Positions 10,836-61,022 of a stretch of DNA of 64,000 nucleotides are shown in pieces. Position 1 is the stretch's first letter. Each line of letters begins with the position of its first letter. This stretch comes from Candidatus Parcubacteria bacterium (lineage in GTDB: Bacteria > Patescibacteriota > Patescibacteriia > Patescibacteriales > UBA12075), in NCBI GenBank assembly GCA_963814275.1, contig CAWFCE010000002.1, forward strand, positions 234,537-298,536, given 5' to 3'. Made by a program: the position numbers and the translations under genes. The notes beneath the pieces were generated by a model. It was given only the letters and a program-made list of their open reading frames with translations, did no database searches and was not told the origin of the DNA.

Positions 10836-12185
10836 TTATACGTTTACTTGCAATACCTGTTTAATCGCTTCGATATCCTGTTTTATCCGATCGTTATTTT
10901 CCATTTCTTTTTCAATCTTATTGTAGGCATGCATCGCGGTCGTGTGGTCGCGCCCGCCCAGTTCGTGGCCGATAGTGGGGTAACTATTGTTAAGTTCTTT
11001 GCGCAAAAGATACATGCTGATCTGGCGGGGATAAACCAATTCTTTTTTGCGGCTTTTTCCGGTCAGATCCTTATCACTGATGTCAAAAAAATTGGCTACC
11101 GCATCAAGGATGTGGCGGCTGGTCGTGGATTTGGATTTGATCGTCGACAACAAGCTGTTCAAAACGCTTTTCGTAGTATCCAGGGTGGGTTTGGAATTAT
11201 TGAATTCATGAAAAGCGATCAAACGATTAAGCGCGCCTTCCAGCTCGCGGATATTCGATTGTACATTGTTGGCGATATAATAAAGTATTTCCTGTTCCAG
11301 GGAATAATTCTTTTCCCGGCACTTGGTTTCCAGAATAACCACCTTGGTTTCGATATCAGGAGGGGTAATATCAGCTATCATTCCCCATTCAAAACGGGAC
11401 AAAAGCCTTTTTTCCAGGGCAGGAATGGATTTGGGCTGGCGGTCAGAGGTCAGGACTATCTGCTTATTGGTTTGGTGTAATTCATTGAAAGTATGAAAAA
11501 ACTCCTCTTGGGTACCATCCTTGCCGGCCATAAACTGGATATCATCAATCAACAAACAATCGACATTCCGATAACGCTCCTTAAAATCCTTAGCCTGCCC
11601 GCTTTTTACCGACTGGATGTAATCATTGGTAAATTTTTCACATGTTACATACAATACGCGTCCGTTTTGCTTGGTGATCTCGTGTCCGACCGCTTGCAGT
11701 AAGTGGGTTTTCCCCAATCCGACACCGCCATAAATAAACAAGGGGTTGTAGGCATTTCCCGGGTTGGCCGACACAGCCTGGCTGGCGGCATGGGCGAGCT
11801 CATTACCCTTGCCCACTACAAAGGTTTCAAAAACATAACGCGAATTAAGACCGTAACGATTTATTGGCGCCGCCGGTTCTGTTTCATCTTTTTTAATCTT
11901 AATCCTCTTCAGTAAATCACCCATGGGTGATGTTTTTCTGGTTTCAACTTTGTAATAAACTTTATTAACCTTTTGCTGGCTGATATTAGAAATCGCTTCC
12001 GCGATTTGCTGATGGTATTTCTTTTCCAGCCAAGCCTTGGTGAAGGTGTTGGGAACACAAACAATACATTTATCATTATCAAAGTCGGAGATAAACGTGT
12101 TTTTGAACCAGGTGGTAAAATTTGCTTTAGATAAATTCAGTTCGATTTCACCTAATACCGCCTGCCACAGTTGATCATTGTTCAT
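10836..12185 (-). CDS. dnaA: chromosomal replication initiator DnaA
   Basis: Walker A GGVGLGKTHLLQA, LLIDDIQF, sensor SNIRELEGAL, and C-terminal DNA-binding signature GGRDHTTAMHAYNKI. Confidence 0.97.
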   Translation of the reverse strand: MNNDQLWQAVLGEIELNLSKANFTTWFKNTFISDFDNDKCIVCVPNTFTKAWLEKKYHQQIAEAISNISQQKVNKVYYKVETRKTSPMGDLLKRIKIKKDETEPAAPINRYGLNSRYVFETFVVGKGNELAHAASQAVSANPGNAYNPLFIYGGVGLGKTHLLQAVGHEITKQNGRVLYVTCEKFTNDYIQSVKSGQAKDFKERYRNVDCLLIDDIQFMAGKDGTQEEFFHTFNELHQTNKQIVLTSDRQPKSIPALEKRLLSRFEWGMIADITPPDIETKVVILETKCREKNYSLEQEILYYIANNVQSNIRELEGALNRLIAFHEFNNSKPTLDTTKSVLNSLLSTIKSKSTTSRHILDAVANFFDISDKDLTGKSRKKELVYPRQISMYLLRKELNNSYPTIGHELGGRDHTTAMHAYNKIEKEMENNDRIKQDIEAIKQVLQVNV

Positions 12186-13092: not shown

Positions 13093-13437
13093 GTGTTGGC
13101 AAAACAACTAAGACTAACCAAACAAAAAGATTATGACCGGGTGTGGCAGGATGGTGTAGCCAGTTTTACTAAGATGTTAGGCGTAAAAGCCGTAAAGACG
13201 GCATCATTAACTAGCCGTGTTGGAGTGGTTGTTGGTGTGAAAGTCAGTAAAAAGGCAGTGGTCAGGAATCGGATTAAGAGACGAATCCGGGCTGTAATCG
13301 AAGATCAGAAACCGGTTATGAAAGCCGGTTTTGATATAGTGGTTGTTGCCTTGCCGTCCATTGTTGACATGGAATCGGGTGATATCAAGAAGGCGGTCTT
13401 GTCGTGTTTACAGAGGCTAAAATTAATAAATGAATAA
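13093..13437 (+). CDS. rnpA: ribonuclease P protein component
   Basis: GTG start. 114 aa basic protein ([16 protein letters not shown] = RNR motif) in the rpmH-rnpA-yidD-yidC order. Confidence 0.85.
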
Positions 13438-14646: not shown

Positions 14647-15075
14647 ATGAAGATAATCCAAAAAGCCGCGATCAAGGCCGGAAACAAGTATTTGATAATG
14701 CGCCGTTCGGCCAAGGTGGATATTAATCCGGACTGCTGGGATTTTCCCGGCGGCCGGCTTTATGACGGCGAAGACCCGGAACCGGGCCTTATCCGCCAGG
14801 TGTTCGAGGAAACCGGACTTAAGATCAAGGTGCTTCAGCGGCAAACCAACTATGAGATCGATACCAACGATCTTCCTTATCATTATGTAATTTATGGCGC
14901 AAAAATTCTCCAGGGCGAGGATGTGGTATTGTCGGTAGAACACGACGAATACCGCTGGTCGACCAAAGAAGAAATGAAGACACTTTCGTTGAATAAGTTT
15001 TTGGTCTATTATATCAATGACGACTCGATCATTTTCAACGATGATACAGGCAAAACACCGCCATCAAACCAATAA
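14647..15075 (+). CDS. NUDIX hydrolase
   Basis: Nudix box GGRLYDGEDPEPGLIRQVFEETGL. Confidence 0.8.
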   Translation: MKIIQKAAIKAGNKYLIMRRSAKVDINPDCWDFPGGRLYDGEDPEPGLIRQVFEETGLKIKVLQRQTNYEIDTNDLPYHYVIYGAKILQGEDVVLSVEHDEYRWSTKEEMKTLSLNKFLVYYINDDSIIFNDDTGKTPPSNQ

Positions 15076-16020: not shown

Positions 16021-16401
16021 TTATTTACCTGCTACAGCTGCCGTGCCCTCGTCTTTCCCCATCCGGCAATGGCCGTTTATGATCGCGCCCTTTTCGATTG
16101 ACAGCTGACCGGCGCTCAGGTCGCCCTTGATCCGGGCGCTTGCATTGACTTCGAGGTAGCCCGCGACGGTAATATTGCCGCTGACCCGGCCGCCGATACG
16201 GGCATCCTTGGCCTGGATGTCCGCGGTGATCACTGCCTTATCGCCTACCAGCAGGTGGTTGTTGGTTTTGACGCTGCCCTCGACCTCGCCTTCGATGACG
16301 ATATTGCCGTCACCATGGAAGTTGCCCTTGACTTTGACCGACTGGCCGATAATGGTTTCGGCCTGTTTGAGGCCGCTATCGTTGTTTTCGTTTTTGAACA
16401 T
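16021..16401 (-). CDS. bactofilin family cytoskeletal protein
   Basis: TIIGQSVKVKGNFHGDGNIVIEGEVEGSVKT..LLVGDKAVITADIQAKDARIGGRVSGNITVAGYLEVNASARIKGDL is the bactofilin beta-helix repeat pattern. Confidence 0.85.
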   Translation of the reverse strand: MFKNENNDSGLKQAETIIGQSVKVKGNFHGDGNIVIEGEVEGSVKTNNHLLVGDKAVITADIQAKDARIGGRVSGNITVAGYLEVNASARIKGDLSAGQLSIEKGAIINGHCRMGKDEGTAAVAGK

Positions 16402-16563
16402 AATTCGAATTTAAAGTAAAAAATATATGAATAATATATAATGGTTAAATAGCAACATCATCCTTATAATCGGAATACAATATTATTTTTAACTAAACTG
16501 GATAGCCTTAAAGCCCGGGTAAATTAAAGTATTGTTTGATTTTATATTAAACTAATTTTAAAT

Positions 16564-16598
16564 AAAAATCAACAAAAAACAACCTTAATAAGGGTTGT
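16564..16598 (-). terminator. rho-independent terminator (minus strand) following the structured RNA
   Basis: Minus strand reads ACAACC-CUUAUUA-GGUUGU followed by UUUUUGUUGAUUUUU. Confidence 0.5.
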
Positions 16599-16909
16599 AA
16601 TGTTTTTGCGACAAAATGTTTTGTGGGGGCGGGAATGCGAAACGCTTCCCGTTTGTCGGTTGTTTTGATCTACTATAAAGCACGGAGCGGATTTTACCGT
16701 TGGTACGGCGTCAGCCGTAAGACTGTTTAAAACAGCGATTGCTTACCCAAACGCTTTTGGAGCGGCGCGTGGAAATGGTTATTACAAGCAATCTGGATCT
16801 AGGTAATGATAAATACAATAAAGAGCTGATAACGGCGGGTTTCGAACAGTTTGCCGAATAACCGCCTTACTTCCTCTGTACCCCCGCAACACCTTTTGTC
16901 AGTGATTAT
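16599..16909 (-). ncRNA. unclassified structured RNA (~300 nt) with long-range closing helix
   Basis: Ends pair over 16 bp: GACAAAA 16610-16616 with TTTTGTC 16897-16903, and TTGTGGGGG 16619-16627 with CCCCCGCAA 16884-16892. At least six internal hairpins. No ORF. Minus strand assigned from promoter and terminator. One G-U pair in the closing helix would favour the plus strand. Confidence 0.5.
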
Positions 16910-16915
16910 TGATGT

Positions 16916-16943
16916 ATTATAGAATAGTGATGTTGCTAGGCAA
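16916..16943 (-). promoter_or_regulatory. sigma70-like promoter for the structured RNA
   Basis: Minus strand TTGCCT (16943-16938), 16 nt spacer, TATAAT (16921-16916). The closing helix starts ~13 nt downstream. Confidence 0.45.
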
Positions 16944-17028
16944 TTAAATTTTTCTTAAAATAAAGTAAAATAGTTAATTTGCGAACTTAAGCCATTTATA
17001 GATGCTATAAGGAGAGGTGATTAAACAT

Positions 17029-17490
17029 TTATATTCGTTTCGACATATAGACATCGTGGTGGTCCAGATGCTTCCTGATCTTGTCCGTGCGGTAACCCAG
17101 GTGTTTGTAATAATCCGGCAATCTCTTCTCACGGGCGCAATCCAGGGTAATCCGGTGGCAGCCTTTTCGTCTGGCTAATCGCTCAACGCATTTGACCATT
17201 TTCGCGCCGAGCCCCCGGTTGCGGCAACTTTTCAAGACGGCCAGTTGGTAAATATATAAAACGTTATTGGCAAGCATTTTATATTTAACCGCACCGACTA
17301 TGCGGCCGTTGATGATTGCCACGATCGTGAAAAATTCCTTGTTGTGGAAACGAAAATGGATATTTTTCGGTACGTGCGGTATGGTCGTTCTGGCGCCGCT
17401 TATGTAGGGAATCCGGTAGGCCATTCGGGTAACCGCGATAACCCGGCGTAATTCCGCCGGCCGGCCTTGCCTGATAGTAATTTTTGTCAT
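17029..17490 (-). CDS. GNAT family N-acetyltransferase
   Basis: QLAVLKSCRNRGLGAKMVKCVERLARRKG is the acetyl-CoA binding motif (Q/RxxGxG/A). Confidence 0.8.
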   Translation of the reverse strand: MTKITIRQGRPAELRRVIAVTRMAYRIPYISGARTTIPHVPKNIHFRFHNKEFFTIVAIINGRIVGAVKYKMLANNVLYIYQLAVLKSCRNRGLGAKMVKCVERLARRKGCHRITLDCAREKRLPDYYKHLGYRTDKIRKHLDHHDVYMSKRI

Positions 17491-17573
17491 AAGCTTATAG
17501 GCATTGCCATTCTGGAATTATTATGTTAACATAATTTGTTATAAATATAATATAAAAAAGGAGGTAAGCTTGA

Positions 17574-17804
17574 ATGGCTAATTTTAAATTCGTTTTATGT
17601 AATCATTGCCAGGCAGAAATTTTGTTGGCGGGCAAAAAACACATCCCCCTAAACAAAAATATCGGAGAAGCTGACAGCGTAACCCGATGCACAAATTGCC
17701 AGTGTGAAGTTCTTTACAATAGTAAGACGCTTAAGGTAGTGGACTTTAGTAAGGTCGAGCAAGAGCGTCTTGTGTTGCGCGCAATGCAGGCGGTAGGCAG
17801 ATAA
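17574..17804 (+). CDS. small zinc-ribbon-like protein
   Basis: GGAGG RBS upstream. Two CxxC pairs (CNHC...CTNCQC). 76 aa. Confidence 0.5.
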   Translation: MANFKFVLCNHCQAEILLAGKKHIPLNKNIGEADSVTRCTNCQCEVLYNSKTLKVVDFSKVEQERLVLRAMQAVGR

Positions 17805-17826
17805 TACCGCTCCATGCCTTGCCCCT

Positions 17827-17859
17827 ATCGGCAGTCTCAGTCTGGGCTGCCGATTTTTA
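17827..17859. terminator. bidirectional terminator
   Basis: ATCGGCAG-TCTCAGTCTGGG-CTGCCGAT followed by TTTTTATTTTTT. Lies between convergent genes. Confidence 0.6.
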
Positions 17860-18210
17860 TTTTTTCATTTTGACGCGGCAAAAACCTTCAAAGCGGATAT
17901 CACCCCCTTTGAATACTTCTACAACCCGGTATTTTCCCCGGGTATAGGCAAGGTTATTTTCGATAAAGTGGGTGGCTTCGAGAATGATTATACTCGCTTT
18001 CGGCCGGGACAATACTTCATTGCCCTTGGTCTCGATCAGGGGGATTTCCCCGAAGAGCCAATAGTTCCGATGGTCGCGCTTCAGAAAAGAGTAAATTTCT
18101 CCGGCCGTCAGGTCATTCGGGATGCATTCCTCGATCCGACGGTTGCCGTTCTGGTATTCAGCTATATTGCGGAGCGCCAAATCCGGGTTGTATTCGACTT
18201 TAATTCCCAT
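17857..18210 (-). CDS. hypothetical protein
   Basis: 117-aa ORF with no overlapping better frame. No motif recognised. Confidence 0.5.
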   Translation of the reverse strand: MGIKVEYNPDLALRNIAEYQNGNRRIEECIPNDLTAGEIYSFLKRDHRNYWLFGEIPLIETKGNEVLSRPKASIIILEATHFIENNLAYTRGKYRVVEVFKGGDIRFEGFCRVKMKK

Positions 18211-18231
18211 ACTTTTTAATAAATTATCGAA

Positions 18232-18849
18232 TTATTTTTTTACGCTGTCTTTTATCATTTTCACGATCTCCGGGAATTCAGTGATTTGGAAATGCCCCTT
18301 GATGTGTTTGTAGATGATTATGTCCGCGCGTTTAAGCTTCTTCCGGTATTTTTCCGCGTGGACCGGTGGAACCACCTCATCTCTGGCCGAAAAGAAAAGT
18401 TTGAGGTTGGGGCAATTTATTTCAAGTAACGACAGGTTGGATTTAAGCGTAAAACCGCCCACCAGATCCTCAGTGGAGTGGCTGTTGTCATAAGGCGGAG
18501 CGACCAGATAGACGGACCGGATCTTTTTCGGGAATTTATGTTCGGACAGGTATTTGGCCAGGAAGATCCCGCCCAGGGAAGTGCCGACCAGGATCACGCC
18601 GTTTTTCATCAGCGGAATATATCGTTCGAAATATATCCGCCAATCTTCATAGCGCGCGTTCTCCGCCAGGGGCATCATGGGCCGGATGATATCGAATTCA
18701 CGATCCAGTTTATGTTCCAGGTACTCCCCTTTCCAGCTTGGTTTCTTGGTCAGTTTAACCTCCTTGGTCCGGAGGTAATGAAGGAAATCGCGGCGGCTTT
18801 TGAAGGTTATGCCGCCGTGGATTATGAAAATTTGCTTTTTTCTTGACAT
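18232..18849 (-). CDS. alpha/beta serine hydrolase (YdeN/RBBP9-like)
   Basis: Nucleophile elbow VGTSLGG, ~200 aa, late His in IKGHF. Confidence 0.7.
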   Translation of the reverse strand: MSRKKQIFIIHGGITFKSRRDFLHYLRTKEVKLTKKPSWKGEYLEHKLDREFDIIRPMMPLAENARYEDWRIYFERYIPLMKNGVILVGTSLGGIFLAKYLSEHKFPKKIRSVYLVAPPYDNSHSTEDLVGGFTLKSNLSLLEINCPNLKLFFSARDEVVPPVHAEKYRKKLKRADIIIYKHIKGHFQITEFPEIVKMIKDSVKK

Positions 18850-18863
18850 AGGTTTAAATTAAT

Positions 18864-18892
18864 TTGACAATATAAAAGGCTTAGTATATTAT
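18864..18892 (+). promoter_or_regulatory. sigma70-like promoter of the tRNA-like gene
   Basis: TTGACA 18864-18869, 17 nt spacer, TATTAT 18887-18892. Confidence 0.5.
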
Positions 18893-18918
18893 AAAAAAAT
18901 CGTTCCTTGTGTTTTTAT

Positions 18919-18994
18919 GGGGGAAAATGACAGTCGTCAGCGCCGGCCCACCAAGCCGGAGTCGCAGGAGTTTCGAGACCTGCTTCCCCCGCCA
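18919..18994 (+). ncRNA. atypical tRNA-like RNA (76 nt, Gly-like ACC anticodon position, encoded GCCA end)
   Basis: 7-bp acceptor GGGGGAA/TTCCCCC then G-CCA. 5-bp anticodon stem CCGGC/GCCGG with 7-nt loop CCACCAA. D arm reduced to TGAC-AGTC-GTCA (no GG). T arm GCAGG/CCTGC with a 10-nt loop AGTTTCGAGA. Confidence 0.5.
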
Positions 18995-19003
18995 AAAAAT
19001 CAT

Positions 19004-19035
19004 GAGAGCCTTTAACATTCGGCTCTCTTTTTTTT
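19004..19035 (+). terminator. rho-independent terminator after tRNA-like gene
   Basis: GAGAGCC-TTTAACATTC-GGCTCTC followed by TTTTTTTT. Confidence 0.7.
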
Positions 19036-19104
19036 GTCTAAATATCTTTGGGAAGCGGAGGATGGTTTATCCTCCGTTAGGGGGTTGGCGCCTTTGGCGT
19101 TCTG

Positions 19105-19281
19105 CTATTTCGGTTCCGGTTTTTCTTTGTTCTGGATCTCGAGTGCTTTGGCTTTCCAATCTTTGATCGTTTTGGCGATCCGGTACACGGTATCGGTCGA
19201 AGACTTGCCCCTTGACCGTATGGCCTGGTTGCGTGCGAAAATATTGTGCTGCCGCCAGCTGAAATAAGGTTTTGTCCTCAT
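19105..19281 (-). CDS. small basic hypothetical protein (58 aa)
   Basis: Not in the ORF track. AGGAGG (19293-19288) lies 6 nt before ATG 19281. Encodes MRTKPYFSWRQHNIFARNQAIRSRGKSSTDTVYRIAKTIKDWKAKALEIQNKEKPEPK. Preferred over the overlapping GTG-started 73-aa frame. Confidence 0.4.
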   Translation of the reverse strand: MRTKPYFSWRQHNIFARNQAIRSRGKSSTDTVYRIAKTIKDWKAKALEIQNKEKPEPK

Positions 19282-19406
19282 TCTGCACCTCCTTTGTTTA
19301 TTTGAATGTTGCGCTTCCCGGAGATATTTAATTATTATTTTGAATTGACAGTTAAATTATTATATGAAATATTAATATAATTTGCCAAGCATTTTATTAC
19401 TATTGA

Positions 19407-19871
19407 TTAACATTTTAGGCGTTTCCTAGCCTGTTCAATAAACTTGAAATCGCGGTTGTTCATCGCGATCTCATCCGGTTTTTTGCTCCTGACATTCGCG
19501 AACAGTTCAGCGGCCTCTTCAAAAGTCCGCCAGATCAGGTGGAAATTGTTGTCTTTTTCCTCGTTGGTAAAGTTCGTCGCCAGAAGGTCACGGGTTTTTT
19601 TGGCCAGGAAGCAGACCGAATGGTTGATCAGATCCGGGAATTCCGGGGTTTCGAACTGGGACTCGTCCAGACGGGCAATGATCTCGACATCGCAGGCCGC
19701 TTCCTCGCGCGCTTCCCGCCGGGCGGCTGCTTCCGGATTTTCGCCCTCCTCGATCTCGCCGCCGGGGATCTTATGGTAATCCCCGTCTTTAACTTCCAGG
19801 ACGGCGATCTTACCGCTGTTCCCGTCCAGCACGACAGTTCGCGCCGCCCTTCGGATTTTTTTATTGATCAT
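19407..19871 (-). CDS. NUDIX hydrolase
   Basis: Nudix box GGEIEEGENPEAAARREAREEAACDV. Confidence 0.8.
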   Translation of the reverse strand: MINKKIRRAARTVVLDGNSGKIAVLEVKDGDYHKIPGGEIEEGENPEAAARREAREEAACDVEIIARLDESQFETPEFPDLINHSVCFLAKKTRDLLATNFTNEEKDNNFHLIWRTFEEAAELFANVRSKKPDEIAMNNRDFKFIEQARKRLKC

Positions 19872-19887
19872 AAATAAAAATTGCTAA

Positions 19888-20142
19888 TTATTTTTTTGTC
19901 AGGTTTTCCAAATCGACCGCCAGATCATCGAAGCGGTTTTTCAATAAATGATTAGCGTCTGCCACGCCTTTGTTATAGAGGGCGGATCCGGCAGTCTGCA
20001 AAAACATATCCAGGATATTTTCGGCGGCGATGACCCCGACCTCCTCATCCCGCTCATTTTGGAAATATTCGATTATTGCCTCAATTGTCGATCTCCTTTT
20101 TTCATCAGGCAATAAATCGTTTTGGCGTTTGCTTTCTTTCAT
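19888..20142 (-). CDS. DUF2164-like small protein
   Basis: IEAIIEYFQNERDEEVGVIAAENILDMFLQTAGSALYNKGVADA resembles the DUF2164 family pattern as I recall it. Confidence 0.55.
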   Translation of the reverse strand: MKESKRQNDLLPDEKRRSTIEAIIEYFQNERDEEVGVIAAENILDMFLQTAGSALYNKGVADANHLLKNRFDDLAVDLENLTKK

Positions 20143-20189
20143 ATTGCGTAGTTAACTTTAAATTGATTTTTCCCTAGAGGCACACTGCG

Positions 20190-20522
20190 CTAAACCTGGT
20201 TTTTAGCCAGATTGATGATCGTCAATACCAGACCGACCACAAAGATCGCCGTAAAAATAGTTTTGTTGTGTTTGGCCAGCCACCGGGGCAGATAAATATC
20301 GAAATTGGGATTCCGGTCAGCCGTATATTTGGCTGCCAGCGGCGTCAGCGGGCAGGTCCATTTGTTCCAGACCAATACCACTGACTCCAGTATGACCAGA
20401 ATGATCGAGGCCAGGACTAGCGCGTTGAAAGTGCCGGCCAGCCCGGCATAGAGGACATAAATGACAGCCGAGGCCATCACGGCCCAGACAGCGGTATGGA
20501 TAAGTTTAATTGCTTTGATCAT
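20190..20522 (-). CDS. small membrane protein (DUF2784-like)
   Basis: Three predicted TM segments with a conserved-looking WTCPLTPLAAKY motif. Confidence 0.5.
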   Translation of the reverse strand: MIKAIKLIHTAVWAVMASAVIYVLYAGLAGTFNALVLASIILVILESVVLVWNKWTCPLTPLAAKYTADRNPNFDIYLPRWLAKHNKTIFTAIFVVGLVLTIINLAKNQV

Positions 20523-20642
20523 AAATGGACTGTTGCGCGGTTCTTATAATATTATAAGAACATTGGACGATATTCAATTTATGTGATAATGTATAATTTC
20601 TTTAAATTAATAATATCATAAATACAAAAGGAGGAAATCACG

Positions 20643-20942
20643 ATGAAACGTATAAAAGTATTGGTAGCGATTGTTTTGGTTCTCGTGTCCTTGTTTCCGA
20701 TGATGGTTGTCTATGCCGGGAACTTTGCGTACAAAGATTTTAAACGGGGAGATTTCATCGAACTCACGGACGGGAAGTTCTATTGGGTGCAGGACAAGCT
20801 TGACGAACAGAACATAGACGTCAGGCAGTATCAAATTTTTTGGAAAAGTTTTACCTGGAAAGAACTTAAAAAGGAGTTGAAAGCGATTTACAAGCCCGGC
20901 ACTAATGGATGGTGCGAAATGTCGCAAGAGTATTTGAAATAA
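20643..20942 (+). CDS. small secreted protein
   Basis: AAAGGAGG RBS. Signal-peptide-like N-terminus MKRIKVLVAIVLVLVSLFPMMVVYA. Confidence 0.6.
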   Translation: MKRIKVLVAIVLVLVSLFPMMVVYAGNFAYKDFKRGDFIELTDGKFYWVQDKLDEQNIDVRQYQIFWKSFTWKELKKELKAIYKPGTNGWCEMSQEYLK

Positions 20943-20986
20943 ACACGTTCCTGACCGCATATCAGAGGAAGCCAGCCCCAGCTGAT

Positions 20987-21346
20987 TTATCTGCCGGGGC
21001 TTTTTATTTGCCAATTGGCTGTCAGGGTCAGCGCAGTTGGCGGCAACAGTAGAATGGTAAAGCCGATCACTACCGGCATATAGTAGTCGAAGAGCAGCGT
21101 GCCGGCAAGCGCCGTGATTATGGCCGCGATCAAACCGTAAACAAGATTATATTTCGTTTTCTGTAATTTTTTTACGATCATTATCGCAAGCAGACTACCG
21201 AGTGAGATTCCCAAAATACCGAAAAAGGCGCCGCCGGCTTCGTAGCCGACGTTGCCGCCGAATTCGAAAAAGCCGTAATTACCACCGATATAGGAGCCCG
21301 CTACAAGGCCGAAGATCCCAAACAGCATGCCGCCCAGGAGGCTCAC
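20987..21346 (-). CDS. glycine-zipper membrane protein
   Basis: Gly-rich TM segments (GGMLFGIFGLVAGSYIGGNYG...GAFFGILGISLGS). Start uncertain (GTG). Confidence 0.5.
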   Translation of the reverse strand: MSLLGGMLFGIFGLVAGSYIGGNYGFFEFGGNVGYEAGGAFFGILGISLGSLLAIMIVKKLQKTKYNLVYGLIAAIITALAGTLLFDYYMPVVIGFTILLLPPTALTLTANWQIKSPGR

Positions 21347-21449
21347 AATAAATTGAATGAATATTGTTATTCAAAAATAAATTTATGGAAAATAAATATT
21401 TTCAGGAAGCGGGAAAGCCGGATGAGGCTTTCCCGGATTTTACGAAGAG

Positions 21450-21668
21450 CTAAGCCAGCGCGACCATCAGAAGGGCGTCCGCAAATTTTTCAATGGTACC
21501 CCATTCTTTGCCTGTGAAGCTGGCTAATCCCGGTTCACATTCATACCTGGTTTCGGGATAAATATGCCTTTCCCTTTGTTCATGTATGAACATGACTGTT
21601 ACGTCTGACGGGTTTATCCCCATGTCTTGTGCAATAGCATCGGTAAAAATTTTTTCCAAATTTGGCAT
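21450..21668 (-). CDS. hypothetical small protein
   Basis: AGGAGG RBS 6 nt upstream of ATG. 72 aa. 17 nt downstream of the RHH-like gene. Confidence 0.5.
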   Translation of the reverse strand: MPNLEKIFTDAIAQDMGINPSDVTVMFIHEQRERHIYPETRYECEPGLASFTGKEWGTIEKFADALLMVALA

Positions 21669-21685
21669 TTATGACCTCCTTTGTA

Positions 21686-21883
21686 TCATTTCTTTTTTTC
21701 GAACAATCTCCTTCTTTGCGTTTCACGAATTTCTTTTTGCGCCACTGCGGGCAGAATCTTGATTAATTGGTGCGCGAGCTCTCCGGATGATTCGCCGGAT
21801 TCTATACGCTGGTCGCGGCGCCTGTAGATATCTGCTATGCTAAGATTAATTCTGACCGGCGGAAAAAATTTATTTCGAGTCAT
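21686..21883 (-). CDS. ribbon-helix-helix-like small protein
   Basis: AAGGAGG RBS. VRINLSIADIYRRRDQRIESGESSGELAHQLIKIL fits a strand-helix-helix (CopG/Arc-like) layout. Confidence 0.4.
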   Translation of the reverse strand: MTRNKFFPPVRINLSIADIYRRRDQRIESGESSGELAHQLIKILPAVAQKEIRETQRRRLFEKKK

Positions 21884-22043
21884 TTGATCCTCCTTATGGT
21901 TTTGTAATTGGCTTCCTGAAAATATTCATTTCTTATGCGGCAACTCTAATTACCCACTACCGGATTTTATTCTTATTAGTGCGATTGGTTTTTATCGGGC
22001 GGCAAAATATTTTTAGAGGGGAGGCATTAAATGTTAATGCCGA

Positions 22044-22271
22044 TTAAGTTACAGATTTTAACAAAAGATCATGGGTATGCCAGGCCGCCATATCTTTGGC
22101 GCAGGCAACGATAAGCGCGATGGCGAAGTAGGCGGTGAAAAACCAGTCACCGATGATGAAGAAAACGATCGTCAGCATGAGTATATCGAAGAAAACAGAA
22201 GTTATTACCTGGGCGTCGGTCTTGTGCGCTTCCCGCATTTCCTGTTCGAAATATTGGTTGATCGGATCCAT
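22044..22271 (-). CDS. small membrane protein
   Basis: GGAGGGAAGGAGG upstream of ATG 22271, with two TM segments. The longer upstream extension in the track is unlikely. Confidence 0.5.
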   Translation of the reverse strand: MDPINQYFEQEMREAHKTDAQVITSVFFDILMLTIVFFIIGDWFFTAYFAIALIVACAKDMAAWHTHDLLLKSVT

Positions 22272-22424
22272 AGCACCTCCTTCCCTCCCCCTCTGAAAAT
22301 ATTTTGTCAAAGATGGAATGCCGGGAGCGGATTCTGAGCTCCCGGCAATCAATTAAAAGTTCGTTGTTAGGAATGTCGAATGTACGTTTGACTGTTTCTG
22401 TGCATCCGGCCAGATCACCAGTCG

Positions 22425-22874
22425 CTATGGCGAGATACGCTTGATCGTGCGGTCTTGGCGGTTGAGCTCCCAGGCTTCGCTTTTTTCGACAGCATGACAG
22501 TAGCCGTCAATGCCGAATTCCGTCAGATAATTGTCCGTTAGATATTCGGTGTATTCCAGATGGGTGACTACAATGACGGCATCAGTCTTGCTGGCTACGG
22601 CATCGATCAGTATTTGGGATTCTTCCAGGTTTCCCCCGTGCCCTTTGTCGTTCCAGAGCGCCTCATGCTCTTCGACCGGACATTTAAGTACATTGCCGAT
22701 TGCCCTGGCGCTGTCCGCCGCGCGCGGCGCCGACGAGGCCAATATCTTGACCGAGGCGCCGTTCAGTCTGGAGTGGATCTTCCCGGCCAGAATAGTCATT
22801 TGTTCCCACCCGTCAGGCGTAAGCATGCGGGCTGAATCATAGGGACCGTGCCTTACAATGTACAGTTTATCCAT
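22425..22874 (-). CDS. histidine phosphatase family protein (SixA/PGAM-like)
   Basis: N-terminal LYIVRHGP (RHG motif) and a later VVTHLEY His motif. Confidence 0.75.
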   Translation of the reverse strand: MDKLYIVRHGPYDSARMLTPDGWEQMTILAGKIHSRLNGASVKILASSAPRAADSARAIGNVLKCPVEEHEALWNDKGHGGNLEESQILIDAVASKTDAVIVVTHLEYTEYLTDNYLTEFGIDGYCHAVEKSEAWELNRQDRTIKRISP

Positions 22875-22933
22875 TTCTTCCTCCTTCGGTCTTATTTTCC
22901 TGTTTTCTATTTAGCGATTTTTTACACCCAGTT

Positions 22934-23119
22934 TCAGACCAAAAAGCCATTCCCGATGCCGAATTTCCGGCACCATTCCAGATATTTCCTGTTGAGCGGA
23001 TGCGGCGAAGGCGGCACTTTGATCATGTTGTCTTTGCAGCGCAATCCTCTCGGCAGGGCTTTTTTCATTTCTTCGGTTACCCCGGTAATGATAGTGTGTC
23101 TTTCCCATTTGATTGCCAT
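22934..23119 (-). CDS. hypothetical small protein
   Basis: AAAGGAGG RBS upstream of ATG 23119. 61 aa. Confidence 0.45.
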   Translation of the reverse strand: MAIKWERHTIITGVTEEMKKALPRGLRCKDNMIKVPPSPHPLNRKYLEWCRKFGIGNGFLV

Positions 23120-23213
23120 CGATGTGCACCTCCTTTACTGTTTTTATTATTACGGACATTTAATCAATCGATAAAATGTTTATGGGTAGGGTGAGGAGTG
23201 CCGTTTTTCCCGA

Positions 23214-23492
23214 CTAAAGGCCAAGCGCTGAATGGTATTCGATGCGTTCCCAGGTTCTGGGATTGGCTTTTGCCTGATCTTTACTTAGGTTATAAAGAAT
23301 CATCGTTCCGTGGCAATTTTTTGTTTTGCATCCGATGTGATCGGCATCGCGCATTTCATCATGCCAGAAAATCCGCGCCAGGCCGCAATCTGGGCATATA
23401 TAAACCAGGAGTCTTTCCCAGTCTTTGATCTTTCCATTTTGATAGACAAGTCCGTACCGCACAACCCTTAAGAGAAAATTATTTCCGTGCAT
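23214..23492 (-). CDS. hypothetical Cys/His-containing protein
   Basis: AAGGAGGG RBS. CPDC...HIGCKTKNCH suggests a zinc site. Confidence 0.5.
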   Translation of the reverse strand: MHGNNFLLRVVRYGLVYQNGKIKDWERLLVYICPDCGLARIFWHDEMRDADHIGCKTKNCHGTMILYNLSKDQAKANPRTWERIEYHSALGL

Positions 23493-23701
23493 ATTCCCTC
23501 CTTTTCCCGCATAACGGCAATCTTTTGTATTATAGAATGCTTTTGCTTTTTGTTTCGTCGTCTTGAGCGAAGCGGAAGGCCACTTATCACGTCTCGCTCC
23601 GTTCGAAATGGCAAAAATAACGAGGCAATTATTATGTGTTAATGTTTTTGGTCTTGGGCATGATTTTGACGGGGTGTCCGCTCGGTTTTTTCATACAAAA
23701 A

Positions 23702-24049
23702 TTATTCCATCACTTCGATCTTGTTCCCGTCAGGGTCGGCCAGCGCGAATGTTTTGCCCCAGCTTGCCTCCTGTAGGCCCTTGGTTATCGTGGCTTTTTT
23801 GTCCAGTAACGCTTGATATATTTTCTCGATATTTTCGGTTTTTAAAATCACGGTTTGCCGGCCGGGAACTTTTTCCGGTGTGTTTGCCATGTTAACGGCC
23901 AGACAAGTGCGGTCATTTACATTAGCCTTGAAGGCGACGTAATTCCCCTGGTCGCTCACCAAAGTGAAGCCCAGGGTTTCCAGATAGAACTTTTTGGACT
24001 CCTCAATGTCTTTGGTATAGAAAATTACGGCATAGAGAGAATTGAACAT
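23702..24049 (-). CDS. VOC (glyoxalase/bleomycin-resistance) family protein
   Basis: 115 aa. FYTKDIEESKKFYLETLGF...ALADPDGNKIEV is a typical VOC fold signature. Confidence 0.8.
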   Translation of the reverse strand: MFNSLYAVIFYTKDIEESKKFYLETLGFTLVSDQGNYVAFKANVNDRTCLAVNMANTPEKVPGRQTVILKTENIEKIYQALLDKKATITKGLQEASWGKTFALADPDGNKIEVME

Positions 24050-24075
24050 AGGTAATTTAAATAAAAAGCAAGTTA

Positions 24076-24549
24076 TTACAAATCGACTTCCAAAGTCAGG
24101 GCATAGTCTTTGAAATGGTTTTTTCGATAAAATTTGATGGCTAATTCATTCTGGGCAGAGGCTTCAACCTTTACCTTGCCGACTTTCTTTTCCCTGCACC
24201 AGACAAGAAATTCGTCGTAAAGTTGTTTGCCTATCCCCTTCGACCGGTAATCCTCCTGGACGAAAGTGTTTTCCAGTTCGGCCACAAGCGGTAGTTTCCG
24301 GTAAACCTCTGCCTTGGTTAATCCGCCGCAAAGGTAACCGACGATTTCGTTATCGGCCAGGGCGACCAGAACGCAGCCGTCATCCTTGGCGATCCTGTTT
24401 TGGAAGTATCCGGTTCCAGCCTCACCGAAAGTCCAGCCCAGGTCCAGTAATGGGTCATATTCTTTGTATTCTTTCTCGAATAGCTTGAAGTTCAATTCCT
24501 GGATCTTTTGCAGGTCATTTAGGTCCGCTGTTTTGATCGTAATATTCAT
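24076..24549 (-). CDS. GNAT family N-acetyltransferase
   Basis: FVQEDYRSKGIGKQLYDEFLVWCREKK acetyl-CoA motif. Confidence 0.85.
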   Translation of the reverse strand: MNITIKTADLNDLQKIQELNFKLFEKEYKEYDPLLDLGWTFGEAGTGYFQNRIAKDDGCVLVALADNEIVGYLCGGLTKAEVYRKLPLVAELENTFVQEDYRSKGIGKQLYDEFLVWCREKKVGKVKVEASAQNELAIKFYRKNHFKDYALTLEVDL

Positions 24550-24563
24550 ACTTGCTTTTTGTT

Positions 24564-24866
24564 TTAGAGTTTAACTAATAAGCCAGAGATAATAAGATAT
24601 TGCGCGAGTTCTAATCCGATAGAAAACATAAATGCGGTTAAAAAATCATAGCCCAGAAATTTCATTATCACCATTAAATTGATTATAGCGGCAAATAAAG
24701 CCCCCAGTATGCCCAGCATTTTGCCAAGAGTGCTGACAATAACCAAAACAAGCGCGAGCAAAGAAATTCTTTTTATTTTATCGTTAATGCCATGGTCAAA
24801 TAAGGTAACCAATAACCAAAGACTGATAAAAGAGATAAGAAACGAAATAATAAACGGCACAATCAT
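24564..24866 (-). CDS. small membrane protein
   Basis: 100 aa, three hydrophobic segments. Confidence 0.5.
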   Translation of the reverse strand: MIVPFIISFLISFISLWLLVTLFDHGINDKIKRISLLALVLVIVSTLGKMLGILGALFAAIINLMVIMKFLGYDFLTAFMFSIGLELAQYLIISGLLVKL

Positions 24867-25035
24867 TTAATAAGAAATTATGAATCAAATATGTATACAT
24901 AATATCGCCTGGGATATCGGCGTATTTGATATTTCATTACAGCTGCAACTCGCCAAAGCGGAAACTGAACTCAGAAGTGTGAGCGTTAAGAATAACATTA
25001 CATTTTTTCTGACTATTTATAGTCGCCTTTCAGGG

Positions 25036-25599
25036 CTAGCTAGCGTCTGCGTCCTGGTCTGCGTCATTATTACAATATTTTAAATAAGTATCGATTGCAC
25101 TGTCAATGATATTAATGTTTTTTATCGTTTTACTTTTTGGGTTTTTCGCATATTCTTTTATCCAAACCAATGAATCGTGCGCAGATTCTGCTATTAGATC
25201 CGAAGTTGTCAATAAAAATGGACTTATCCAATCGGATATCATGATGCCGTTAAATACAACGTTAGAACGTCGGTGATGCGTGTTCTTCGGAAGGATCGTA
25301 ACCACTGGTCGTGAAAAATATTTTGCCACTATAATTTCTTGTGCAGTACCTGCACCGATACCAGTACCGATTTCTTTCTCCGCGTTAACGATTACAAGGT
25401 CCGAGGTTTTGACAAGATTAGCAGCATGACCAAAAAGCAAGAATGGTTTTGTGTCATCTTTCCAGGTATCACCATCCATAAAATCAACATTACTAAGTTG
25501 AGAAAAAATTTCTTTATAATGCGTTTTCCAGTCGTCCCATTTATTTCTGTTATCATCGCCCTTGGGAACGGATCCGGCTAAAAATATTTTGAACAGCAT
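25036..25599 (-). CDS. nucleoside 2-deoxyribosyltransferase-like / YtoQ-like protein
   Basis: MLFKIFLAGSVPKG...SDLVIVNAEKEIGTGIGAGTAQEIIVAKYFSRPVV resembles the NDT-like flavodoxin fold. ATG 25599 preferred over TTG 25641. Confidence 0.5.
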   Translation of the reverse strand: MLFKIFLAGSVPKGDDNRNKWDDWKTHYKEIFSQLSNVDFMDGDTWKDDTKPFLLFGHAANLVKTSDLVIVNAEKEIGTGIGAGTAQEIIVAKYFSRPVVTILPKNTHHRRSNVVFNGIMISDWISPFLLTTSDLIAESAHDSLVWIKEYAKNPKSKTIKNINIIDSAIDTYLKYCNNDADQDADAS

Positions 25600-26126
25600 A
25601 GTAACAGAATGCCTAAAATTAATTCCGAATATGAGTAGCAAATTTAAATTATAAGTTATATCTGGACTTAACGAGTTCCTACTTTAATCCTAGCTCAATA
25701 ATATGTATAAGGCAAGGCGGACAGACAAGAATAATAGGGTAAATATTGGTATTTGGGACGCTTGCCAAATCCGTAAAACTACATTATTATAATATTATTG
25801 TTAGATAGTGAATTTTCGGTAGTTTGTTTGAAAAATAAGAATACGAATTGGCACAAACTGGAGACGAATGATCACCAACGATTTTAACTAGTGTATACAT
25901 TATATATACAAGCAAAATCCCCTGCTTGCTCGTGAATATAAGGACTGGTCTTAAACAATTTATAAAGAAAATCTAAAGAAGATTTAAAGATGTTATAAAG
26001 CCGGAAAGATTCCGGCGTAGTTTTTGTTTACACGTTAAATATAGTATTATAGAACTATAGTAATATAGTACTATATATATTGTATAGCGGATCCATGAAC
26101 CCCGGGAAGAGGCAGCGTGAGTATTC

Positions 26127-26199
26127 GCCCCTGTAGTTCAGCCGGATAGAACGGGGGTTTCCTAAACCCTAAATAGAGGTTCGAGTCCTCTCGGGGGCA
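26127..26199 (+). tRNA. tRNA-Arg (anticodon CCT)
   Basis: Manual cloverleaf: acceptor GCCCCTG/CGGGGGC, D arm GTTC..GAAC, anticodon loop TTCCTAA, T arm AGAGG-TTCGAGT-CCTCT. Confidence 0.9.
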
Positions 26200-26550: not shown

Positions 26551-26627
26551 GGCCCTGCCTGCCGGCAGGCAGGAAAAGACAAGTGGAAAAATCGAAAATT
26601 GGAAAATCACCATTCGAAAATTAAATT

Positions 26628-60047: not shown

Positions 60048-60258
60048 TTTATTTTTTCTTTTATGTTAGTCTATAAAAGACTCCGAAAGGGAGTTTTTTG
60101 TAATATTGACAGTTGCTAAACGCTAGTATTTATTCTAAAATACTTTCGGTAATATATAATTCAAAATAAACAATATTTGTAAGCTCCCGTGGTGAAACGG
60201 ATATTATATCCCGCGAAGCGAGTGCCTGTAGCTCAATAGATGGCCCCGCACCTTTTGC

Positions 60259-60332
60259 GCTCCGGTAGCTCAACTGGATAGAGCGTGTGGCTTCGGACCA
60301 CAAGGTTAGGGGTTCAAGTCCCTTCCGGAGCA
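60259..60332 (+). tRNA. tRNA-Arg (anticodon TCG)
   Basis: Acceptor GCTCCGG/CCGGAGC, D arm GCTC..GAGC, anticodon loop CTTCGGA, T arm AGGGG-TTCAAGT-CCCTT. Confidence 0.9.
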
Positions 60333-60502
60333 CAGAAGGTGCGGGGTCGAACAAAAAGGTTACGGGTTCGTCAGGTCATTCGACCTGACGCCCGGTCGAA
60401 TGACCGGGCGAGTCCTGACGGGAGCACACGGAAATTTTCGATTGACGATTTATGATTTTCGAAACAATTCTGAGATCGAAAATCGTAATTCGAAAATTGC
60501 GG

Positions 60503-60576: not shown

Positions 60577-60692
60577 CGAGCAAGCTAAGAAGTTCGTAAA
60601 GTTTAAAGTTTGTAAAAGCTACGGACGATTAGTATTGTGCGATTAGGCAAAATATACTTTCAACTTTAAACTTTTCGACTTTAAACTATTTT

Positions 60693-60713
60693 GCCCTCAT
60701 AGCTCAGTTGGTA
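60693..60713 (+). pseudogene. duplicated 5' fragment (21 nt) of tRNA-Lys
   Basis: GCCCTCATAGCTCAGTTGGTA is identical to 61023-61043, then diverges into a GC hairpin and the GIY-YIG ORF. Confidence 0.6.
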
Positions 60714-60761
60714 CCGCGCCCGCAACGCTCTCGCTTGCGAGGCGGGCGGGGAGCAGCGTTT

Positions 60762-61001: not shown

Positions 61002-61022
61002 TATAATGTGCCGCCCTCATAG

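What the first reader, a model, noticed from the sequence alone, without database searches (positions are those of the whole stretch)
18864..19035. Stand-alone 76-nt tRNA-like gene with consensus promoter, terminator and encoded CCA but non-canonical D and T loops
A TTGACA-17-TATTAT promoter and a GAGAGCC/GGCTCTC+T8 terminator enclose a sequence that folds as a cloverleaf of exact tRNA length:
- a 7-bp acceptor, GGGGGAA/TTCCCCC
- discriminator G followed by CCA
- a 5-bp anticodon stem with the 7-nt loop CCACCAA

Several features depart from a canonical tRNA:
- The D arm is a 4-bp stem with a 4-nt loop and no G18-G19.
- Three nucleotides, not one, separate the D and anticodon stems.
- Position 33 is C, not U.
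- The T loop has 10 nt (AGTTTCGAGA).

The acceptor, the anticodon-loop context (NCC followed by AA) and the T-arm sequence most resemble tRNA-Gly, with ACC in the anticodon position.

Possible interpretations, all inference:
- a specialised non-ribosomal tRNA, by analogy with the Staphylococcus tRNA-Gly isoacceptors used for peptidoglycan bridges, which have altered D and T loops
- a tRNA mimic or decoy
- a decaying pseudogene that kept its expression signals
Basis: partly seen in the sequence, partly recalled or inferred. Interest (0 to 1): 0.72.

Follow-up and report, generated by a model that had tools for sequence, protein, structure and literature searches.

The report
Orphan remodelled tRNA-Gly-like gene
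A small bacterium of the Patescibacteria group carries a stand-alone gene for a 76-base RNA that clearly descends from a glycine tRNA. Its "elbow" has been rebuilt so that standard tRNA finders miss it, and no relative of it could be found, so whether it has a job or is a well-preserved dead copy remains open.

Summary
Window 18919-18994 (+) is a 76-nt cloverleaf with 21 Watson-Crick pairs, discriminator G and encoded CCA. It lies between a near-consensus promoter (18864-18892) and an intrinsic terminator (19004-35).

ARAGORN (bacterial mode) and Rfam find no tRNA there, even at E<=10. It is still tRNA-derived:
- A covariance model built from it alone recovers every E. coli tRNA isotype, with tRNA-Gly(UCC) the top hit.
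- Its primary sequence is closest to tRNA-Gly(GCC): score 22, against 8.4+-1.9 for structure-preserving shuffles.

Compared with tRNA-Gly it has these changes:
- a rebuilt D hairpin (4 bp, 4-nt loop, no G19)
- 3 nt inserted before an otherwise canonical UUCGAGA T loop
- U8A, U33C, G34A (anticodon ACC), U73G and C2:G71 changed to G2:C71

No homologue was found. It sits in a ~9.7-kb insertion that four related Falkowbacteria-like loci lack or fill differently.

Best reading (0.42): an expressed, tRNA-processed, non-decoding tRNA-Gly paralogue. The main rival (0.35) is a young pseudogene. Function is untested. It is a new variant of a known kind, of moderate interest.

The parts
18864..18892 (+). 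Sigma-70-type promoter: TTGACA, 17-nt spacer, TATTAT.
   Evidence: 11 of 12 matches. Only 10 sites this good occur in the whole window on both strands, and most lie just upstream of genes.
18899..18918 (+). Predicted 5' leader of about 18-20 nt. The start site is inferred from the -10 position. The leader would be removed by RNase P at G18919.
   Evidence: Inference from promoter geometry. The leader is unpaired in the fold of the whole transcript. The RNase P protein gene rnpA is in the window at 13093-13437 (synteny).
18919..18994 (+). 76-nt tRNA-Gly-derived cloverleaf. Acceptor stem 18919-25/18984-90; D hairpin 18928-39; anticodon arm 18943-59 (loop CCACCAA, ACC in the anticodon position); T arm 18964-83 with a 10-nt loop; G73 and encoded CCA 18991-94.
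18969..18971 (+). 3-nt insertion (AGT) on the 5' side of an otherwise canonical T loop, TTCGAGA (18972-18978).
   Evidence: Covariance-model alignments to the window's tRNAs and to E. coli tRNAs. MAFFT alignment A2.
19004..19035 (.). Bidirectional intrinsic terminator: 7-bp GC-rich stem, 10-nt loop, A6 upstream and T8 downstream. It is shared with the convergent 58-codon gene.
   Evidence: Sequence and fold. The consensus scan did not list it because its loop exceeds the scan's 8-nt limit.
19105..19281 (-). Convergent neighbour: a 58-codon basic ORF with an AAGGAGGTG ribosome-binding site and its own promoter (19388-19359). No link to the element has been shown.
   Evidence: No family hit.
18232..18849 (-). 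Divergent neighbour: an alpha/beta serine hydrolase (PF06821). No link to the element has been shown.
   Evidence: Its 38 homologous loci show no synteny and carry no element.

Best explanation
The element is a diverged paralogue of a class-I tRNA, most probably of the tRNA-Gly(GCC) lineage. It is carried as its own transcription unit inside a strain-specific insertion of a Falkowbacteria-like Patescibacterium.

Proposed mechanism:
1. It is transcribed from the consensus promoter as a precursor of about 137 nt that ends at the intrinsic terminator (inferred).
2. The intact 12-bp acceptor/T-stem helix plus the encoded GCCA make it a substrate for RNase P and for 3' trimming, giving a 76-nt RNA (inferred).
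3. The elbow is rebuilt. A 4-bp D hairpin with a tetraloop (no G19) sits on an anticodon helix lengthened by two pairs, and the T loop carries 3 extra bases. U8 and U33 are lost (shown).
4. It therefore most likely acts off the ribosome. It could be an aminoacyl carrier for a non-ribosomal reaction, or a tRNA mimic bound by a tRNA-recognising protein. A regular glycine decoder is unlikely (inferred).

The helices appear to be kept by selection while the tertiary-contact bases have been let go.
For: tRNA descent is shown:
- A single-sequence covariance model of the element hits all E. coli tRNA isotypes at 15-37 bits. Top hits are Gly(UCC) 36.7, Val 33.4, Trp 33.3, Gly(GCC) 33.0 and Gly(CCC) 29.5. 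It also hits the window's own tRNAs.
- In global sequence alignment the best match is E. coli tRNA-Gly(GCC), score 22 at 67% identity, with Trp next at 16. Five hundred structure-preserving shuffles gave 8.4+-1.9, and none reached 22.
- That identity lies within the 58-75% range of genuine Patescibacteria tRNAs against their E. coli counterparts.

The remodelling is shown:
- Alignment A2 and the model alignments give the +3 nt in the T loop, the D region shorter by 2 nt, and the changes at 8, 19, 33, 34, 73 and 2:71.
- Standard tools fail to call it.

A selected structure is suggested:
- All 21 pairs are Watson-Crick.
- The new D helix needs about five coordinated changes from a GCUC...AGUUGGUA...GAGC-type arm.
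- Every identifiable lesion lies outside the helices (my inference).

Expression signals:
- The promoter matches 11 of 12 positions, one of only 10 such sites in 128 kb.
- The terminator forms in the transcript fold.

Other points:
- C35, C36, A37 and A38 of the glycine anticodon loop, G1:C72 and G3:C70 are retained.
- The T-stem 51-63 pair is A-U, as in the staphylococcal non-proteogenic tRNA-Gly that bind EF-Tu weakly, rather than the G-C of proteogenic ones (PMC7826273).
Against: - No homologue was found anywhere I could search, so there is no covariation or conservation.
- The element lies in a hypervariable stretch that is absent from, or differently filled in, four related loci. That fits a young, possibly dead, duplicate.
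- Its identity to tRNA-Gly is not lower than that of genuine tRNAs, so perfect helices may only mean there has been too little time to decay.
- Two acceptor-end features recalled as glycine identity elements in E. coli (U73, C2:G71; my knowledge, not tested) are changed, so glycylation is doubtful.
- No aminoacyl-tRNA transferase, spare synthetase or other tRNA-using gene was found among the roughly 55 ORFs annotated, which cover all seven flanking ORFs of the island.
- There are no expression data.
Confidence: 0.42

Rival explanations
1. It is a young pseudogene. A duplicated tRNA-Gly gene landed in a fast-turnover region and was inactivated by a D-arm deletion, a 3-nt T-loop insertion and anticodon-loop and discriminator substitutions. 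The helices and flanking signals are intact only because too little time has passed.
For: - It is an orphan, and it is absent from the syntenic region of relatives.
- It lies in a ~9.7-kb insertion of miscellaneous small genes.
- It has lost the near-universal U8, G19 and U33.
- It scores below E=10 with the Rfam tRNA model.
- Its overall identity to tRNA-Gly is within the range of genuine tRNAs, so divergence need not be large.
- Canonical tRNA sets are the rule in complete Patescibacteria genomes, where 85 of 95 have all 20 isotypes (PMC13011429). A spare copy would therefore be dispensable.
Against: - At least five or six independent lesions all fall outside the 42 helix positions, and none breaks a pair. 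That is roughly a 1-2% chance if hits were random (my estimate).
- The D arm is not merely damaged. It is re-paired in a new register with four Watson-Crick pairs.
- A near-consensus promoter 27 nt upstream and a terminator 10 nt downstream are kept.
Confidence: 0.35
2. It is a working elongator tRNA-Gly with anticodon ACC that reads GGU, or more codons. It uses a compact core like tRNA-Pyl or mitochondrial tRNAs in place of the usual D/T-loop contact.
For: - It has exact tRNA length and a 7-nt anticodon loop with C35, C36, A37 and A38.
- It keeps an intact acceptor/T helix and CCA.
- ARAGORN in mitochondrial mode calls it Gly(acc) at the default threshold.
- Functional tRNAs with 4-5-nt D loops, no G18G19 and lengthened anticodon stems exist, for example tRNA-Pyl, tRNA-Sec and type II mitochondrial tRNAs (PMC7609411).
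Against: - C33 replaces the near-universal U33 of the anticodon U-turn.
- A34 is hardly used in bacteria outside tRNA-Arg(ACG) (my knowledge).
- U73 and C2:G71 are changed.
- Patescibacteria genomes normally carry canonical tRNA sets.
- It is not conserved in relatives.
Confidence: 0.08
3. It is not an RNA gene. It could be a chance cloverleaf in an intergenic spacer, part of the hydrolase promoter or leader on the other strand, or the 32-codon ORF at 18917-19015.
For: - A relaxed cloverleaf descriptor gives about one chance hit per shuffled window.
- A TATAAT box for the divergent hydrolase overlaps the promoter region on the minus strand (sequence).
- An ATG-initiated 32-codon ORF spans the element.
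Against: - The primary-sequence similarity to tRNA-Gly is far above the structure-preserving shuffles.
- It has a canonical UUCGAGA T-loop core and a GCCA end.
- The ORF has no Shine-Dalgarno sequence, whereas the neighbouring 58-codon gene has AAGGAGGTG.
- The element lies upstream of, not within, any plausible hydrolase leader.
Confidence: 0.05

Closest known systems
Canonical bacterial tRNA-Gly(GCC) (e.g. E. coli glyV/W/X/Y)
   Same: - It is the best primary-sequence match, at 67% identity.
- The acceptor is GNGGGAA/UUCCCNC.
- The anticodon-loop 3' half is CCAA, followed by G.
- The variable region ends in GUC.
- The T-loop core is UUCGAG.
- CCA is encoded.
   Different: - The D arm is re-paired, with a 4-nt loop and no G19.
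- The T loop has +3 nt.
- The base changes are U8A, U33C, G34A, U73G and C2:G71 to G2:C71.
- It is not detected by the Rfam tRNA model or by ARAGORN in bacterial mode.
Staphylococcal non-proteogenic tRNA-Gly (NP1-3), glycine donors for FmhB/FemA/FemB
   Same: - They are tRNA-Gly paralogues with altered D and T arms and a weak A51-U63 pair.
- They escape EF-Tu and the ribosome yet remain processed and charged (PMC7826273).
- This is the nearest functional analogy.
   Different: - The staphylococcal tRNAs keep the UCC anticodon. Their reported D/T-arm differences are base changes (T loop UGC or UGU), with no change of loop length described.
- They are charged by GlyRS as effectively as the proteogenic form (PMC7826273).
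- They form a lineage found only in bacteria with pentaglycine bridges.
- Here there is no Fem-type gene in the window, and the loop lengths, position 33 and position 73 are changed.
tRNA-Pyl and type II mitochondrial tRNAs (compact-core tRNAs)
   Same: - They have a small D loop of 4-5 nt without G18G19.
- They have a lengthened anticodon helix and a short variable region.
- tRNA-Pyl has G73 and G1:C72.
- They work without the standard D/T-loop contact (PMC7609411).
   Different: [quoted passage not shown]
- The element keeps UUC in an enlarged 10-nt T loop and has two bases at positions 8-9.
- There is no sequence relationship, and no pyl genes were seen.
tRNA pseudogenes / tRNA-derived relics next to tRNA genes
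   Same: - It has a low score with tRNA models and has lost universal bases.
- It lies in a variable region, 7 kb from a tRNA-Arg/tRNA-Ala pair.
   Different: - No helix is broken.
- The D arm is re-paired.
- It has its own near-consensus promoter and terminator.

Membership tests
tRNA (Rfam RF00005 / canonical elongator tRNA) | Reaches the family covariance-model threshold, or is called by ARAGORN in bacterial mode. | tested here: not met
   There is no RF00005 match at gathering score, nor at E<=10 on 501 nt or 87 nt. ARAGORN gives nothing until the threshold is lowered to 60%. All six true tRNAs in the window score 63-68 bits.
tRNA (Rfam RF00005 / canonical elongator tRNA) | Cloverleaf with a 7-bp acceptor, 5-bp anticodon stem, 7-nt anticodon loop and 5-bp T stem stacked on the acceptor. 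| tested here: met
   This is the MFE and the centroid fold. Mutual hits with real tRNAs are found using the element's own model.
tRNA (Rfam RF00005 / canonical elongator tRNA) | Conserved tertiary-contact bases: U8, A14, R15, G18, G19, A21, U33, Y48, U54, U55, C56, A58, and a 7-nt T loop. | tested here: not met
   U8 is A, G19 is U and U33 is C, and the T loop is 10 nt. A14, G15, G18, A21, C48-equivalent, U54, U55, C56 and A58 are present.
tRNA-Gly isoacceptor | Closest sequence relationship is to tRNA-Gly. | tested here: met
   E. coli Gly(GCC) is the best match among 29 distinct E. coli tRNAs, score 22 against 16 for the next. The three Gly species rank 1st, 4th and 5th of the distinct species scored with the model. 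Caveat: the same test assigns only about 13 of 23 genuine Patescibacteria tRNAs to the right isotype.
tRNA-Gly isoacceptor | Glycine identity set: C35, C36, G1:C72, C2:G71, G3:C70 and U73 (E. coli type; from my knowledge). | tested here: inconclusive
   C35, C36, G1:C72 and G3:C70 are present. C2:G71 is G2:C71 and U73 is G. The identity rules of this organism's GlyRS are unknown.
tRNA-Gly isoacceptor | Aminoacylated with glycine. | not testable with these tools
   This needs in vitro charging or acid-gel/tRNA-seq data.
Non-proteogenic cell-wall tRNA-Gly (staphylococcal type) | Belongs to the NP1-3 sequence lineage, has a UCC anticodon and co-occurs with Fem-family transferases. | tested here: not met
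   The anticodon position holds ACC. No FemAB, MprF or other aminoacyl-transferase domain was found among the roughly 55 window ORFs scanned. The rest of the genome could not be read. The lineage is reported only in staphylococci (PMC7826273).
tRNA-Pyl | [quoted passage not shown] | tested here: not met
   The loop CCACCAA contains no CUA, and two bases (AA) precede the D stem. No pyl genes were found among the window ORFs scanned.
tmRNA / tRNA-Sec / other Rfam tRNA-like families (clan CL00001, Y RNA-like and others) | Covariance-model match. | tested here: not met
   Nothing at E<=10. ARAGORN's tmRNA mode found nothing.

The most novel reading that the evidence does not exclude
The element may be the first seen member of a class of bacterial tRNAs with a rebuilt elbow: a tetraloop D hairpin on a lengthened anticodon helix, and a T loop that carries its own three extra bases in place of the D-loop contact. 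Such an RNA would still be processed and aminoacylated but kept off the ribosome. In a Patescibacterium it would serve as a dedicated aminoacyl donor, or as a decoy for a tRNA-targeting enzyme.
Probability: 0.12. Interest if true: 0.7.

Novelty: new variant of a known kind. Interest (0 to 1): 0.42.

Why it matters
If the RNA is made and used, it would show that a bacterial tRNA can lose U8, G19 and U33, swap the D/T-loop contact for a different elbow, and still be kept. That pattern is otherwise known mainly from tRNA-Pyl and mitochondria. It would also point to an off-ribosome use of a tRNA-Gly paralogue outside the staphylococci, in a phylum whose cell-wall and symbiotic biology is poorly known.

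There is a practical point too. Standard annotation (ARAGORN, Rfam and, by extension, similar tools) misses it entirely. Such genes would be invisible in Patescibacteria genomes, where tRNA annotation is already known to be incomplete (PMC13011429).

If it is a pseudogene, it is an ordinary by-product of gene turnover next to a tRNA cluster.

Tried and rejected
Homologue searches, all negative:
- blastn against phages and plasmids.
- blastn-short, nhmmer and the element's model on 38 genome loci holding the neighbouring hydrolase. These showed no synteny and no element.
- One metagenome scan for both loops with the T-stem closing pair (CCACCAAN{12,14}GAGTTTCGAGAC). All 38 hits lie in protein-coding repeats of a conserved gene or are otherwise non-tRNA-like, and none matched the model at E<=1.
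- Viral-contig scans for the loop pair, the exact T arm and the exact anticodon arm. Only local chance matches were found.
- Six loci holding relatives of the NUDIX neighbour.
- Eight dnaA-anchored loci of the closest genomes (DnaA 76-79% identical), four of which (L063, L066, L120, L122) reach the bactofilin-trxB region. Three of these hold only canonical tRNA-Arg(CCU) and tRNA-Ala(GGC) there, and L063 holds no tRNA.

The source genome could not be fetched. The flanking protein is on record in a 1.27-Mb contig but is not in the gene-position index. So its own tRNA-Gly genes, and any Fem-type genes elsewhere in it, could not be examined.

Context:
- No family hit links any flanking gene to tRNA biology in Pfam, NCBIfam, PADLOC or PHROGs.
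- No att-like repeats bound the insertion.

Rejected readings:
- tmRNA, tRNA-Sec, Y-RNA-like or riboswitch (no Rfam match).
- tRNA-Pyl (no CUA).
- A type I toxin-antitoxin pair with the convergent 58-codon gene (its product is basic and hydrophilic, not a membrane peptide).
- The 32-codon ORF (no ribosome-binding site).

A supplementary table of complete Patescibacteria genomes (PMC13011429) was checked for this genome by size. The stored copy is cut short, and the genome was not found.

Full report
**What is there.** The window is part of a bacterial chromosome near its origin. It carries PNPase, a class A penicillin-binding protein, dnaN, dnaA (10836-12185, -), rpmH, rnpA, yidD and yidC. DnaA is 76-82% identical to proteins named Candidatus Falkowbacteria, Parcubacteria or Patescibacteria, and the same proteins are on record from one 1.27-Mb contig. 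The host is therefore a Falkowbacteria-like member of the Patescibacteria (CPR).

**The element and its signals.**
- Promoter: TTGACA-17-TATTAT at 18864-18892 (11 of 12).
- Gene: a 76-nt sequence at 18919-18994 with a 7-bp acceptor stem, discriminator G and CCA. It has a 4-bp D stem with a 4-nt loop, a 5-bp anticodon stem with loop CCACCAA, and a 5-bp T stem with a 10-nt loop.
- Terminator: 7-bp stem, 10-nt loop and T8 at 19004-19035.
- The cloverleaf is both the minimum-energy and the centroid fold (-33 kcal/mol, z -3.1). It persists when the whole predicted transcript is folded.
- Only ten promoter-like sites with 11 or more of 12 matches occur in the window on both strands, and most sit just upstream of genes. 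The consensus is therefore informative in this organism.
- The terminator is bidirectional. It also ends a convergent 58-codon gene (19105-19281, -) that has its own promoter.

**Is it more than chance?** The secondary structure alone is not. A relaxed cloverleaf descriptor finds the element and three true tRNAs on the plus strand, plus one other site on the minus strand. It also finds about one hit per shuffled window. The sequence is what counts.
- A covariance model built from the element alone recovers the window's tRNAs as its next-best hits.
- The same model recovers every one of the 20 E. coli K-12 isotypes fetched for comparison, at 15-37 bits. The leaders are tRNA-Gly(UCC) 36.7, Val 33.4, Trp 33.3, Gly(GCC) 33.0 and Gly(CCC) 29.5.
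- Such a model also rewards shared geometry, so I compared primary sequences as well. The best global alignment is to E. coli tRNA-Gly(GCC), score 22 at 67% identity, with Trp next at 16 and all others at 11 or less.
- Five hundred shuffles of the element that keep its helices and loop compositions gave a best score of 8.4+-1.9, and none reached 22.
- As calibration, genuine Patescibacteria tRNAs are 58-75% identical to their E. coli counterparts. This nearest-neighbour test names the right isotype for only about 13 of 23 of them. 'Gly' is the best call, not a certain one.

**How it departs from a tRNA.**
- ARAGORN in bacterial mode and the Rfam tRNA model do not report it, even at E<=10 on an 87-nt query. 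The six real tRNAs in the window score 63-68 bits.
- ARAGORN's metazoan-mitochondrial mode calls it Gly(acc).
- The alignments locate the differences:
  - The T arm is a canonical GCAGG/UUCGAGA/CCUGC arm with three bases (AGU) inserted between the 5' strand and the loop.
  - The D region is two bases shorter. Its stem is formed in a new register, between positions 10-13 (UGAC) and what are D-loop positions 18-21 in a normal tRNA (GUCA).
  - U8 is A, G19 is U, U33 is C, and position 34 is A.
  - The discriminator is G instead of U, and pair 2:71 is G:C instead of C:G.
- Retained features are A14, G15 with the C before the T stem (the 15-48 pair), G26.A44-equivalent (G24.A42), U54, U55, C56, A58, C35, C36, A37 and A38.
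- In the predicted fold, two bases after the D hairpin pair with the variable region. The anticodon helix is therefore two pairs longer, and the small D hairpin is pushed toward the elbow.
- This geometry recalls tRNA-Pyl and type II mitochondrial tRNAs, which work with 4-5-nt D loops lacking G18G19 (PMC7609411). That is resemblance, not relationship.

**Conservation.** I found no homologue.
- blastn against phages and plasmids gave nothing.
- Thirty-eight genome loci holding relatives of the adjacent hydrolase (at most 67% identical, no synteny) carry no element.
- A metagenome scan for both loops with the T-stem closing pair gave 38 hits, none of them tRNA-like.
- Viral-contig scans for the arms gave only local matches.
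- Loci holding relatives of the NUDIX neighbour gave nothing.
- Synteny is informative. In relatives L066, L120 and L122 the order is dnaA-...-DAG kinase-bactofilin-[0.4-1.6 kb]-tRNA-Arg(CCU)-tRNA-Ala(GGC)-trxB. In the window, about 9.7 kb of small accessory genes lies between bactofilin (16021-16401) and tRNA-Arg(CCT) at 26127. These include two GNAT acetyltransferases, a NUDIX hydrolase (a second lies just outside the insertion, at 14647-15075), a hydrolase, DUF2164, a glyoxalase and a SixA-like phosphatase.
- The element sits in this insertion. The relatives have only the two canonical tRNAs there.
- No repeats bound the insertion, and none of its genes has a tRNA-related annotation.
- The absence is real but weak evidence. 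The nearest available genomes are distant, the source genome beyond the window could not be read, and only exact-pattern scans of the large collections were possible.

**What it most likely is.**
- Shown: the element is a diverged copy of a class-I tRNA, closest to tRNA-Gly(GCC), with a rebuilt D arm and an enlarged T loop. It stands as its own promoter-terminator unit in a strain-specific region.
- Inferred: it is transcribed and processed by RNase P, because a 12-bp acceptor/T helix and GCCA are present and rnpA is in the window. It is probably unfit for normal decoding, because U33 is lost, A34 is unusual, the elbow is altered and the 51-63 pair is a weak A-U (PMC7826273).
- The choice is then between a maintained non-decoding tRNA-like RNA and a young pseudogene.
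- For maintenance:
  - All 21 pairs are Watson-Crick.
  - The new D helix requires about five coordinated changes.
  - All identifiable lesions (at least five or six events) fall outside the 42 helix positions, roughly a 1-2% chance if random.
  - The expression signals are near-consensus.
- For decay:
  - It is an orphan in a fast-turnover region.
  - It has lost bases that are universal in tRNAs.
  - Its overall identity to tRNA-Gly is no lower than for genuine tRNAs, so there may simply have been too little time for helices to break.
- I put the maintained, off-ribosome reading at about 0.42 and the pseudogene at 0.35. A true Gly(ACC) decoder gets 0.08 and non-RNA explanations 0.05. The remaining 0.10 is for none of these.
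The donor role is analogous to, but not a member of, the staphylococcal non-proteogenic tRNA-Gly. The changed discriminator and 2:71 pair argue against efficient glycylation by an E. coli-type enzyme (my knowledge, untested here).

**Comparison and novelty.**
- It fails the membership tests for canonical tRNA (model score, universal bases), for staphylococcal cell-wall tRNA-Gly (anticodon, lineage, no Fem genes seen), for tRNA-Pyl (no CUA) and for all Rfam tRNA-like families.
- It passes the tests for cloverleaf geometry and for tRNA-Gly ancestry.
- I found no description of tRNA-like RNAs in Patescibacteria in the paper library. The one systematic study of their tRNA genes concerns group I introns that hide tRNA-Asn and tRNA-Asp from annotation tools (PMC13011429).
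- I rate it a new variant of a known kind: a non-canonical tRNA paralogue. Interest is moderate (0.42). The architecture is unusual and invisible to standard tools, but a single orphan copy without expression or conservation data cannot yet be told from a well-preserved dead gene.

Noticed in passing
window 60692-61088: The first 21 nt of tRNA-Lys(CTT) (61013-61033) are duplicated at 60692-60712. Between the copies lie a GC-rich hairpin and a 79-aa GIY-YIG ORF (60762-61001; PF01541, E 3e-15). This looks like a GIY-YIG mobile insertion next to, or into, the tRNA gene. There is no Rfam group I intron match.
   Followed up: partly
window 60236-60440: tRNA-Arg(TCG) (60259-60333) is enclosed by a perfect 16-bp stem (60242-60257 with 60336-60351). 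It is followed by a GC-rich Y-shaped structure at about 60358-60428. The 205-nt stretch folds at -101.6 kcal/mol (z -7.2). It may be a processing stem or an unknown structured spacer.
   Followed up: partly
window 26590-26627 and 60440-60502: Repeated TCGAAAAT/TTCGAAAATT motifs lie directly upstream of tRNA-Ala(GGC) and tRNA-Met(CAT). They are absent upstream of the tRNA-like element.
   Followed up: no
window 16401-26127: About 9.7 kb of small accessory genes is inserted between bactofilin and the tRNA-Arg(CCT)/tRNA-Ala(GGC)/trxB block, compared with related genomes (L066, L120, L122). The genes include GNATs, a NUDIX hydrolase, a PF06821 hydrolase, DUF2164, a glyoxalase and a SixA-like phosphatase. 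No bounding repeats or integrase were found.
   Followed up: partly
window 18232-18849 (-): The PF06821 serine hydrolase is 57-67% identical to proteins spread over many Patescibacteria classes, DPANN-labelled archaeal bins and an Elusimicrobiales bin, with no conserved neighbours. The pattern suggests frequent horizontal transfer.
   Followed up: partly
window 19105-19281 (-): A 58-codon basic ORF has a strong Shine-Dalgarno sequence and its own near-consensus promoter (19388-19359). It converges on the element and shares its terminator. It has no hit in Pfam, NCBIfam, PADLOC or PHROGs.
   Followed up: partly
L107/L108 4813-6190: In one relative, a homologue of the NUDIX neighbour lies beside a reverse transcriptase and a bAvd gene, a diversity-generating retroelement. 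Nothing comparable was seen in the window.
   Followed up: no
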